A DNA stretch of 64,000 nucleotides from assembly GCF_003334385.1 (NCBI RefSeq), contig NZ_QOWN01000009.1; one strand, 5' to 3'. A program made the position numbers and the translations under genes. Shown piece after piece: positions 37,205-37,653 of the stretch; within the stretch, counting starts at the first letter, position 1, and each line of letters starts with the position of its first letter. The notes under the pieces were generated by a model. The model saw nothing but the letters and a program-made list of their open reading frames with translations, was not told the DNA's origin and made no database searches. Source of the DNA: Escherichia coli. Lineage in GTDB: Bacteria > Pseudomonadota > Gammaproteobacteria > Enterobacterales > Enterobacteriaceae.

Positions 37205-37653
37205 AATTATAATAAATATTATTGTTGAGTGTTATATTATTATTCCTGTGTGATACATTGAGCAAAGACGCGTTCATCTTCGTCAAAGATATTATTAAAT
37301 GCTGGTTTTGAAAAAAGTTCATCGGATAAGATATAGTCACGAAATAAGTATCTGCTAATATTTTATGATTTCTTTTTCAGAACGTCGAACGGGATTTTCT
37401 TATTTAAGATATCAGAATCTTATGATTCGGGTAAAATTCTAAATAAATCAACATGTCATTAAAATCATCATAGCCATTAGCTATTTCGGCTAAAATAGAG
37501 ACTACATGTCTTCGGTCCATCTCACTTAAGGAGTGTAGTTCCGTTGTAAGTTTTTCCATAGCTTGCACTGCTAAATTTCGAACAAGGAATTTTCTGCTGG
37601 TAATCTCTAAAAAGATGGCATGGTTTACAATGATTTTTGTTTCCTTTTGATTA

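What the first reader, a model, noticed from the sequence alone, without database searches (positions are those of the whole stretch)
37205..37653. Unassigned AT-rich spacer with a 51-codon open frame downstream of the immunity candidate
About 450 bp between the immunity candidate and yrhB has no feature. Hand translation of the minus strand finds an ATG at 37559..37557 opening a 51-codon frame ending at TAA 37406..37404: MEKLTTELHSLSEMDRRHVVSILAEIANGYDDFNDMLIYLEFYPNHKILIS. The frame stays open a further 40 codons upstream without an ATG. It is below the 60-aa track cutoff and has no obvious Shine-Dalgarno, so it may be a decayed remnant of a second immunity or orphan cassette rather than a live gene. 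Polymorphic-toxin loci often carry such remnants.
Basis: seen in the sequence. Interest (0 to 1): 0.35.

Follow-up and report, generated by a model that had tools for sequence, protein, structure and literature searches.

The report
yrhD: relic of an immunity gene
The 51-codon frame is the already annotated E. coli gene yrhD, and it looks like the truncated, decaying leftover of a small toxin-immunity gene, so it is an ordinary gene fossil inside a toxin/immunity island.

Summary
A 51-codon ATG frame lies at 37559..37404 (minus strand). Another 40 codons stay open upstream with no ATG, there is no Shine-Dalgarno, and GC is 31%. The spacer is not unannotated, though: the frame is 100% identical to K-12 yrhD (RefSeq 'protein YrhD').

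The extended frame is homologous (hhalign 97.7%, E 1.7e-12) to a family of 82-85-aa four-helix proteins that has no Pfam or NCBIfam model. In 14 of 27 loci from other bacteria, the family member starts exactly where a ~123-aa CdiA C-terminal toxin domain ends. That toxin's predicted fold matches Tox-REase-5 nucleases. The family is therefore a CdiI-type immunity protein.

The E. coli copy is damaged in three ways:
- It lacks the first few codons and the start codon. Homology begins right after the yrhA stop.
- The yrhD ATG is the family's internal Met35, so helix 1 and half of helix 2 would be missing from any product.
- The C-terminal LPES motif lies out of frame.

No cognate toxin was found. 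Two lineages (at least 815 genomes) carry independent premature stops, 9 of 10 substitutions are nonsynonymous, and the spacer diverges 2-3 times faster than yrhA.

The downstream 200 bp remains unassigned. Interest is low.

The parts
37404..37559 (-). yrhD ORF (51 codons plus TAA). It corresponds to residues ~35-82 of the ancestral immunity protein; its ATG is the family's conserved internal Met.
   Evidence: ORF. (annotated yrhD, 100% identical to K-12). (alignment to the family).
37560..37652 (-). In-frame upstream relic with no start codon. It encodes the family's most conserved N-terminal motif (KIIVNHAIFLEI against LVKxIADMAIFLEF). Homology begins immediately after the yrhA stop codon.
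   Evidence: open frame, no ATG. (hhalign aligned from residue 10 of the 91-aa frame). (tblastn with the Rahnella protein, 37646..37470, E 3e-10).
37420..37452 (-). Segment in the -1 frame reading VDLFRILPES*. It carries the family's C-terminal LPES motif out of frame, so a pair of compensating 1-nt indels inside the 3' part of yrhD is inferred.
   Evidence: three-frame translations. (hhalign improves to E 1.4e-14 with the frame-corrected sequence). (LPES occurs only 7 times in 128,000 six-frame positions of the window).
37243..37419 (-). Second open frame without a start codon (DSDILNKKIPFDVLKKKS[*/Q]NISRYLFRDYILSDELFSKPAFNNIFDEDERVFAQCITQE). It is interrupted by TAA 37365..37363 in this window and in K-12, and is open in the divergent alleles. 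No homologue was found, so its origin is unassigned.
   Evidence: frames. (no homologue, no Pfam match, unrelated to the toxins of either neighbouring immunity family).
36920..37204 (-). yrhB, an intact orphan immunity gene of Pfam family Imm35 (context).
   Evidence: Imm35, E 4.6e-23. (a P. aeruginosa homologue directly follows a Tox-PL1 glutamine deamidase toxin). (dN/dS 0.11-0.37).
37654..38148 (-). yrhA, the intact immunity gene of the Hcp-HNH toxin (context). Its stop codon marks the 5' break point of the relic.
   Evidence: NF038335 YrhA family, E 6e-35. (the last 60 nt are identical in all 7 alleles)..
38145..39323 (-). tssD/yhhZ, an Hcp protein with a C-terminal HNH nuclease toxin extension (context).
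   Evidence: TIGR03344 Hcp1. (PMC5714182 places YhhZ among the His-Me finger nucleases).

Best explanation
The 449-bp spacer holds yrhD, a gene fossil. Its ancestor was an ~83-aa four-helix immunity protein of the CdiI type. That protein neutralises, presumably by binding, a ~123-aa CdiA C-terminal toxin domain with a restriction-endonuclease (Tox-REase-5-like) fold.

In the E. coli yhhZ(tssD)-yrhA-yrhB island only the immunity gene survives, with no toxin. It is broken at its 5' end exactly where the yrhA cassette stops, so the start codon and the first few codons are gone. The most conserved motif (helix 1) is still in frame but can no longer be translated. The annotated 51-codon yrhD ORF merely starts at a conserved internal methionine in helix 2. 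Its last ~11 codons are probably out of the ancestral frame, through a -1 and then a +1 indel.

Any product would lack helix 1 and half of helix 2 and could not form the immunity fold. The sequence is now drifting neutrally. The ORF is still open in the K-12-like lineage only because that lineage has not yet been hit by a stop. The B2-type and a second lineage have independent nonsense and start-loss mutations.

Shown here: the homology, the truncation, the toxin adjacency of the intact family, the lineage-specific stops and the substitution pattern. Inferred: toxin neutralisation by binding, the nuclease activity of the toxin, the two compensating indels, and the absence of translation.
For: Identity: 100% match to annotated yrhD.

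Homology:
- tblastn found intact 82-84-aa genes in Rahnella and Pantoea.
- A family of 19 proteins plus 21 genomic loci was recovered.
- hhalign of the family against the 91-aa frame gives 97.7%, E 1.7e-12, covering the no-ATG stretch.
- All invariant family columns (K, I, AIFLE, ME, EL, Y, P) are kept in E. coli.

Immunity role of the family:
- The gene overlaps or abuts the end of a conserved toxin CT in 14 loci, and a partial toxin CT in 3 more.
- In Quatrionicoccus it follows both the full-length CdiA and an orphan CT.
- The immunity model is a four-helix bundle with pLDDT 92.

Decay:
- There is no canonical start upstream and no Shine-Dalgarno.
- The LPES motif lies out of frame.
- RefSeq flags the gene as a pseudogene in all 5 divergent genomes examined.
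- The TAA at codon 23 occurs in 457 genomes and the TAG at codon 39 in at least 358.
- 9 of 10 substitutions in the ORF are nonsynonymous. The spacer differs by 4-8% against 1.6-3% for tssD and yrhA.

No cognate toxin was found in the window or in E. coli genomes by blastn.
Against: - The ORF is intact in about 2800 of about 3800 genomes that carry the locus, and the 91-codon frame is unusually long for 31% GC DNA. Shared recent ancestry explains this without selection, but selection in that lineage is not excluded.
- A genomic SELEX study lists an RpoD 'constitutive promoter' with H-NS binding upstream of yrhD in K-12 (PMC3946193), so transcription is possible.
- No Ribo-seq or proteomic data could be consulted, so the absence of translation is inferred rather than shown.
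- The double-indel reading of the C-terminus rests on one 4-residue motif (post hoc p of about 1e-3). The in-frame reading also aligns weakly.
- Identity to intact family members is only 33-43%.
Confidence: 0.82

Rival explanations
1. yrhD is a live small-protein gene in K-12-like strains. The truncated 51-aa helical peptide is translated and has a residual or new function, for example partial toxin binding or a regulatory role.
For: The ORF is intact and nearly invariant in about 2800 genomes (PMC3575317). A promoter-like site with SELEX support lies upstream. RefSeq and UniProt keep it as a protein.
Against: There is no Shine-Dalgarno. Independent stops and start loss occur in other lineages that keep yrhA and yrhB intact. 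dN/dS is not below 1. The product would lack helix 1 and half of helix 2 of the parental fold. No homologue of the short form exists outside E. coli. No paper in the searchable library reports the protein.
Confidence: 0.08
2. The spacer is the remnant of an orphan toxin C-terminal domain whose cognate immunity gene is the downstream yrhB (Imm35). This would be the usual toxin-CT then immunity order of orphan arrays.
For: yrhB is an Imm35 immunity gene with no toxin in front of it. A 59-codon open frame without a start ends 38 nt before yrhB. In P. aeruginosa a YrhB homologue directly follows a Tox-PL1 toxin.
Against: The yrhD part is clearly an immunity-family relic. The Tox-PL1 toxin shows no similarity to any frame of the spacer. 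Pfam finds nothing in the second frame. Two protein database searches return only E. coli fragments. Homology between yrhB loci of other genera and E. coli starts at the yrhB ATG.
Confidence: 0.07
3. yrhD is the remnant of a second SUKH/SMI1-KNR4 (YrhA-like) immunity gene produced by tandem duplication of yrhA.
For: SUKH immunity genes often occur in tandem. A loose resemblance of 'DDFNDML' to the YrhA C-terminus 'SDFSSFL' was noticed by eye.
Against: BLASTP of YrhA against the 91-aa frame gives E 19. There is no SMI1_KNR4 hit in Pfam. The frame has a significant alternative assignment.
Confidence: 0.01
4. The frame is a chance ORF in AT-rich non-coding DNA, and the spacer acts only as the promoter and leader of yrhB.
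For: Promoter-like hexamers lie at 37388..37360 and 37235..37206 upstream of yrhB. The spacer is AT-rich and lies in an H-NS-bound island.
Against: Homology to an intact protein family is significant. Promoter-like sites are no more frequent than in shuffled sequence: 6 found against 4.9 expected. A promoter role for yrhB is compatible with the relic explanation and does not replace it.
Confidence: 0.02

Closest known systems
E. coli K-12 yrhD (b4612; UniProt P58037; RefSeq WP_001307436.1 'protein YrhD')
   Same: The 51-aa sequence is identical, and so is the position between yrhA and yrhB next to ggt.
   Different: None as a sequence. K-12 has IS1 inserted in yrhA upstream, whereas this window has an intact yrhA. 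The databases list it as an uncharacterised protein; here it is read as a pseudogene fragment.
CdiI immunity proteins and orphan cdiA-CT/cdiI modules of contact-dependent inhibition loci
   Same: Intact relatives are small proteins encoded immediately after, and overlapping by 1-14 nt, a variable CdiA C-terminal toxin domain. They occur both behind full-length CdiA and in orphan arrays, and also as toxin-less orphan immunity genes.
   Different: The family has no Pfam, NCBIfam or PDB sequence match. The E. coli copy lies in a T6SS Hcp-toxin island rather than a CDI locus, and is truncated and toxin-less.
Tox-REase-5 toxins with their immunity proteins (P. aeruginosa TseT-TsiT, PDB 7dym; PA3907-PA3908, PDB 9oz0)
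Imm35 / YrhB and SUKH / YrhA immunity families (the neighbouring genes)
   Same: They lie in the same island and belong to the same functional class: immunity proteins of polymorphic toxin systems, yrhB being an orphan.
   Different: There is no sequence relationship to yrhD. yrhA and yrhB are intact and under purifying selection, and yrhD is not.

Membership tests
YrhD (RefSeq 'protein YrhD', UniProt P58037) | Sequence identity to the 51-aa K-12 protein and the same locus (yrhA - yrhD - yrhB - ggt). | tested here: met
   100% identity over the 449-bp spacer to K-12. The feature is annotated yrhD / WP_001307436.1.
Unnamed CdiI-type immunity family (82-85 aa; LVKxIADMAIFLEF ... ME..A.ELQ ... 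EY ... LPESLGLI) | Significant sequence homology across the family's length. | tested here: met
   hhalign 97.7%, E 1.7e-12 over 73 columns. tblastn E 3e-10 in the window. All invariant columns are retained.
Unnamed CdiI-type immunity family (82-85 aa; LVKxIADMAIFLEF ... ME..A.ELQ ... EY ... LPESLGLI) | A complete ORF of ~83 codons with its own start codon. | tested here: not met
   There is no ATG, GTG or TTG upstream of the helix-1 motif. Homology starts right after the yrhA stop. The only starts are the internal ATG and a GTG three codons before it.
Unnamed CdiI-type immunity family (82-85 aa; LVKxIADMAIFLEF ... ME..A.ELQ ... EY ... LPESLGLI) | C-terminal LPESLGL motif in frame. | tested here: not met
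   LPES is present only in the -1 frame at 37434..37423. In frame the sequence reads FYPNHKILIS.
Unnamed CdiI-type immunity family (82-85 aa; LVKxIADMAIFLEF ... ME..A.ELQ ... EY ... LPESLGLI) | Encoded directly downstream of the cognate ~123-aa CdiA-CT toxin domain. | tested here: not met
   There is no toxin-CT similarity in the window. The upstream gene is yrhA. About 10 of 27 intact relatives are also toxin-less, so this feature is frequent but not obligatory.
Unnamed CdiI-type immunity family (82-85 aa; LVKxIADMAIFLEF ... ME..A.ELQ ... EY ... LPESLGLI) | Protection against the cognate toxin by binding. | not testable with these tools
   Requires toxin and immunity co-expression or competition assays.
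SUKH / SMI1_KNR4 (YrhA family) immunity proteins | Sequence or profile similarity to YrhA or Pfam SMI1_KNR4. | tested here: not met
   BLASTP E 19. No Pfam hit. No NCBIfam hit.
Tox-PL1 (toxin glutamine deamidase) relic, cognate toxin of Imm35/YrhB | Similarity of any frame of the spacer to the toxin that precedes YrhB homologues. | tested here: not met
   The best tblastn segment is 11 residues, E 0.31, in a 570-nt search space. No Pfam hit for the second frame.
Pfam DUF1463 | Profile match above noise that is shared by relatives. | tested here: inconclusive
   There is a single weak hit, i-Evalue 9e-4 and 19.5 bits, on residues 5-38 of the 91-aa frame. It is absent from the intact Pantoea homologue. 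It is judged to reflect the N/K/I-rich composition.

The most novel reading that the evidence does not exclude
In K-12-like E. coli the truncated 51-aa YrhD is still translated from the internal methionine and has a function of its own. It could be a two-to-three-helix fragment that still blunts Tox-REase-5-like CdiA toxins, or a small protein co-opted for another role. That would explain why the frame is intact in about 74% of genomes that carry the locus.
Probability: 0.06. Interest if true: 0.45.

Novelty: new member of a known kind. Interest (0 to 1): 0.22.

Why it matters
The result gives an evolutionary identity to one of the remaining uncharacterised K-12 y-genes. It argues that yrhD should be curated as a pseudogene, a 5'-truncated orphan immunity gene, rather than as a protein.

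It also defines a toxin/immunity pair that is missing from Pfam and NCBIfam: a Tox-REase-5-like CdiA-CT with a four-helix immunity protein. The pair is found in Photorhabdus, Citrobacter, Leclercia, Brenneria, Ralstonia, Quatrionicoccus and others.

Finally, it shows that the ggt-proximal Hcp-HNH island of E. coli is a mosaic of immunity genes from different delivery systems (T6SS, CDI, Tox-PL1). None of this is surprising for polymorphic toxin loci, where orphan and decayed cassettes are the rule.

Tried and rejected
1. A direct protein search with the 91-aa frame in 5.8 billion proteins, and full HMMER of a 138-aa composite against 1.84 billion representatives, returned only E. coli fragments. 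The family was found only through tblastn against plasmids.
2. A YrhA duplication origin was rejected.
3. A Tox-PL1 toxin relic in front of yrhB was rejected with the one toxin available.
4. The second frame at 37243..37419 gave nothing: no Pfam hit, no NCBIfam hit, no protein database hit, no hit in the 27 family loci, and no similarity to other yrhB loci.
5. Rfam gave only sub-threshold eukaryotic snoRNA hits, which are spurious.
6. Promoter and terminator scans found no more sites than in shuffled sequence.
8. A blastn search for an intact toxin+immunity module in E. coli genomes found nothing.
9. A PSSM scan of the window for the C-terminal motif did not rank the out-of-frame segment highly, because its spacing is one residue short. 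Only the exact LPES count was used.
10. A literature search for YrhD expression data found nothing beyond a SELEX promoter listing and a conservation remark.

Full report
**1. The observation**

On the minus strand an ATG at 37559 opens 51 codons that end in TAA at 37406..37404. The same frame stays open 40 codons further upstream, as far as a TAA inside the 3' end of the preceding gene. That stretch has no ATG; the only other canonical start is a GTG three codons before the ATG. The 26 nt before the ATG hold no Shine-Dalgarno. The spacer is 30.7% GC, the island 33.6% and the whole window 53.0%. The description is therefore correct.

The statement that the spacer carries no feature is not correct. 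The 449 bp are 100% identical to E. coli K-12, where the frame is annotated as yrhD (WP_001307436.1, 'protein YrhD'). The sequence is present in 3809 of 5426 complete E. coli genomes, always on the chromosome.

On the minus strand the local gene order is:
- yhhY
- tssD/yhhZ, an Hcp protein with an HNH nuclease extension (38145..39323)
- yrhA, intact here and split by IS1 in K-12 (37654..38148)
- yrhD
- yrhB (36920..37204)
- ggt, on the other strand

**2. What the frame is related to**

Searching the 91-aa extended frame in 5.8 billion proteins returned only E. coli variants and gene-caller artefacts. A full HMMER search of 1.84 billion representatives did the same. A tblastn of a composite translation against plasmid records then found two intact hypothetical genes of 82-84 codons, in Rahnella aquatilis and Pantoea dispersa. 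Both aligned to the part of the E. coli frame that includes the no-ATG stretch.

Starting from these, a family of 19 proteins of 82-85 aa was collected, plus 21 genomic loci in one-genome-per-species contigs. The genera include Erwinia, Citrobacter, Leclercia, Kosakonia, Lelliottia, Silvania, Brenneria, Photorhabdus, Pectobacterium, Collimonas, Azonexus, Quatrionicoccus and Sphingomonas. The family has no Pfam, NCBIfam or PDB sequence match.

Its alignment has a strongly conserved pattern: LVKxIADMAIFLEF, then ME..A.ELQ, then EY, then LPESLGLI. Profile-profile comparison with the E. coli 91-aa frame gives 97.7% probability, E 1.7e-12, over 73 columns. The alignment starts at residue 10 of that frame, which is the codon immediately after the yrhA stop. 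Every invariant family column (K, I, A-I-F-L-E, M-E, E-L, Y, P) is retained in E. coli. The 51-aa ORF alone still scores E 8.5e-6.

**3. What the family does**

- In Photorhabdus tasmaniensis the gene overlaps the end of a 188-aa orphan CdiA fragment, inside a CdiA locus that also holds Imm8, CdiI and an EC869-like toxin.
- In Quatrionicoccus it occurs twice, once 4 nt into the end of the full-length CdiA and once after an orphan CT.
- In Pantoea and Pectobacterium it lies in orphan arrays with VENN pre-toxin fragments, Imm63, TNT and tRNase toxins.

A tblastn with the last 124 residues of the Quatrionicoccus CdiA shows the wider pattern. In 14 loci a conserved toxin domain (59-100% identical) ends exactly where the family member starts. 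Three more loci keep a partial toxin, and about ten have the immunity gene alone.

The family is therefore a CdiI-type immunity protein for a restriction-endonuclease-fold CdiA-CT. The gene order is shown here. Binding, protection and nuclease activity are inferred.

**4. State of the E. coli copy**

- *5' truncation.* Homology starts right after the yrhA stop codon, the family's first few residues and start codon have no counterpart, and no ATG, GTG or TTG precedes the helix-1 motif. The annotated ATG is the family's conserved Met35 in the middle of helix 2. A product would lack helix 1 and half of helix 2.
- *3' frame scramble.* The invariant LPES motif is found at 37434..37423 in the -1 frame (VDLFRILPES*), while the yrhD frame reads FYPNHKILIS* there. 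The spacing fits a 1-nt deletion before the motif and a 1-nt insertion after it. The frame-corrected sequence scores better (E 1.4e-14). LPES occurs only 7 times in 128,000 six-frame positions of the window. This step is probable but post hoc.
- *No partner toxin.* No toxin relic is in the window, and blastn found no related toxin+immunity module in E. coli genomes.

**5. Population evidence**

Seven alleles were aligned.

- The B2-type allele (7% divergent) has TTA changed to TAA at codon 23. Some members have additionally lost the ATG (ATA in ECONIH2, GTA in EcPF14), while strain A33 keeps it.
- A second allele (4-5% divergent) has TAT changed to TAG at codon 39.
- RefSeq flags all five divergent copies as pseudogenes, while yrhA and yrhB in the same genomes are mostly intact.

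Allele-specific 45-mers give these counts. The TAA allele is found in 457 genomes, including Nissle 1917 and the type strain ATCC 11775. The TAG allele is found in at least 358. The K-12-like ORF is found in about 2800.

Between alleles, 9 of 10 substitutions in the ORF are nonsynonymous. The spacer differs by 4-8%, against 1.6-3.1% for tssD and yrhA. dN/dS is 0.11-0.68 for yrhA and 0.11-0.37 for yrhB. The last 60 nt of yrhA are identical in all alleles, and divergence starts right after its stop. At both stop sites the K-12 state is the ancestral one, judged from the family alignment. The open frame in K-12-like strains is therefore retention, not evidence of selection.

**6. The rest of the spacer**

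Downstream of yrhD a second frame (37419..37243) has no start codon. It is open for 59 codons in the divergent alleles and is interrupted by TAA 37365..37363 in this window and in K-12. It has no homologue in either protein database and no Pfam or NCBIfam hit. It has no counterpart in the 27 family loci.

yrhB is a Pfam Imm35 protein. Imm35 is reported to pair with Tox-PL1 and Ntox40 toxins (PMC3482391). A P. aeruginosa plasmid homologue directly follows a Tox-PL1 'toxin glutamine deamidase'. That toxin shows no similarity to the spacer, and homology between other yrhB loci and E. coli begins at the yrhB ATG. The downstream 200 bp thus remains unassigned. It may be a second, older relic or simply non-coding DNA that carries the yrhB promoter. 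Promoter-like hexamers are present but are no more frequent than in shuffled sequence. Rfam finds nothing credible.

**7. Literature**

The searchable library holds no functional or expression study of YrhD.
- It is mentioned as a 156-bp gene cluster with zero substitutions among 68 genomes (PMC3575317). This reflects sampling of the K-12-like clade.
- It appears as the target of a SELEX-defined RpoD 'constitutive promoter' with H-NS binding (PMC3946193).
- yhhZ and yrhA are listed among H-NS-bound 'promoter islands' (PMC3661553).

These reports are compatible with a silenced, horizontally acquired island.

**8. Verdict**

The finding is real but ordinary. It is the annotated gene yrhD, best explained (confidence about 0.8) as a 5'-truncated, internally frame-scrambled, toxin-less relic of a CdiI-type immunity gene drifting neutrally.

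The new elements are the assignment of yrhD to a family and the definition of an uncatalogued CdiA-CT/immunity pair. The main unexcluded alternative, that the 51-aa fragment is a live small protein in K-12-like strains, has a low probability and needs Ribo-seq or tagging to settle.

Noticed in passing
L009:5448-6255, L011:3510-4138 and 5630-6258, L014:5640-6252, and others (L012, L015-L019, L021, L022, L027, L030, L032): There is a conserved toxin/immunity pair with no Pfam, NCBIfam or PDB sequence match. The toxin is a ~123-aa CdiA C-terminal domain (KVKWVDEN...FDGVDGNVMIDRK...GRWEV...IKNIEVKVVK) with a predicted Tox-REase-5-like fold. It is followed by an 82-85-aa four-helix immunity protein. 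The toxin is also present on Ralstonia megaplasmids.
   Followed up: partly
window 37243-37419 (-): A second start-less open frame lies between yrhD and yrhB. It is 59 codons long in the divergent alleles and is interrupted by TAA 37365..37363 in this window and in K-12. No homologue was found anywhere, so its origin is unknown.
   Followed up: yes
window 36920-37204 (-); L035:3615-4282: yrhB is an Imm35 orphan immunity gene under purifying selection (dN/dS 0.11-0.37) with no toxin in E. coli. In a P. aeruginosa plasmid a 58% identical homologue overlaps by 1 nt the end of a Tox-PL1 'toxin glutamine deamidase' fragment.
   Followed up: partly
window 37654-37713 versus 37205-37653; loci L001-L005, L037: The last 60 nt of yrhA are identical in all seven alleles, but divergence jumps to 4-8% immediately after the yrhA stop codon. 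This is a sharp boundary between constrained and unconstrained DNA, or a recombination break point.
   Followed up: partly
window 38145-39323 (-), against L003 and L004: tssD/yhhZ shows 16 nonsynonymous against 4 synonymous differences between this window and the RIVM_C037791 allele (dN/dS about 1.1). In strain EC1 both tssD and yrhA are frameshifted, so the toxin gene itself may be under relaxed or diversifying selection in some lineages.
   Followed up: no
L006 (E. coli PKF8, NZ_CP156813.1): An IS1 sits between yhhY and yrhB, and tssD, yrhA and yrhD are all deleted. Only 71 nt of the spacer are left in front of an intact yrhB.
   Followed up: no
protein P0005 (105 aa, E. coli, 66.8-kb contig): This is a deletion variant that fuses the first 42 codons of yrhA in frame to the start-less stretch upstream of yrhD (…EFNSNS|RKFLVRNLAVQAMEKL…). 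It would translate part of the relic's N-terminal region.
   Followed up: no
protein P0014 (51 aa, Logan assemblies, 81 contigs): This YrhD 'variant' is 76% identical, and every difference is the kind produced by C-to-T changes (T>I/M, H>Y, S>F, R>W, A>V, P>L). It is most likely assembled from bisulfite-converted reads and is not a real allele.
   Followed up: no
L010:6292-6381 and 8172-8261; L008:3341-3442: Short SymE-toxin-like fragments of 29-33 codons lie antisense between cassettes of the Pectobacterium and Pantoea CDI orphan arrays, one of them directly after the yrhD-family gene.
   Followed up: no
L022 (Leclercia sp. 29361): ~3323-3550 and 6001-6246: There are two copies of the immunity gene in one locus. 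One follows the toxin CT and the other stands alone about 2.5 kb downstream.
   Followed up: no
window 37741-37712 (-): The hexamer pair TAGAGA-18-TATATT, listed by a genomic SELEX study as the constitutive promoter of yrhD in K-12, lies inside the 3' part of yrhA in this window.
   Followed up: no
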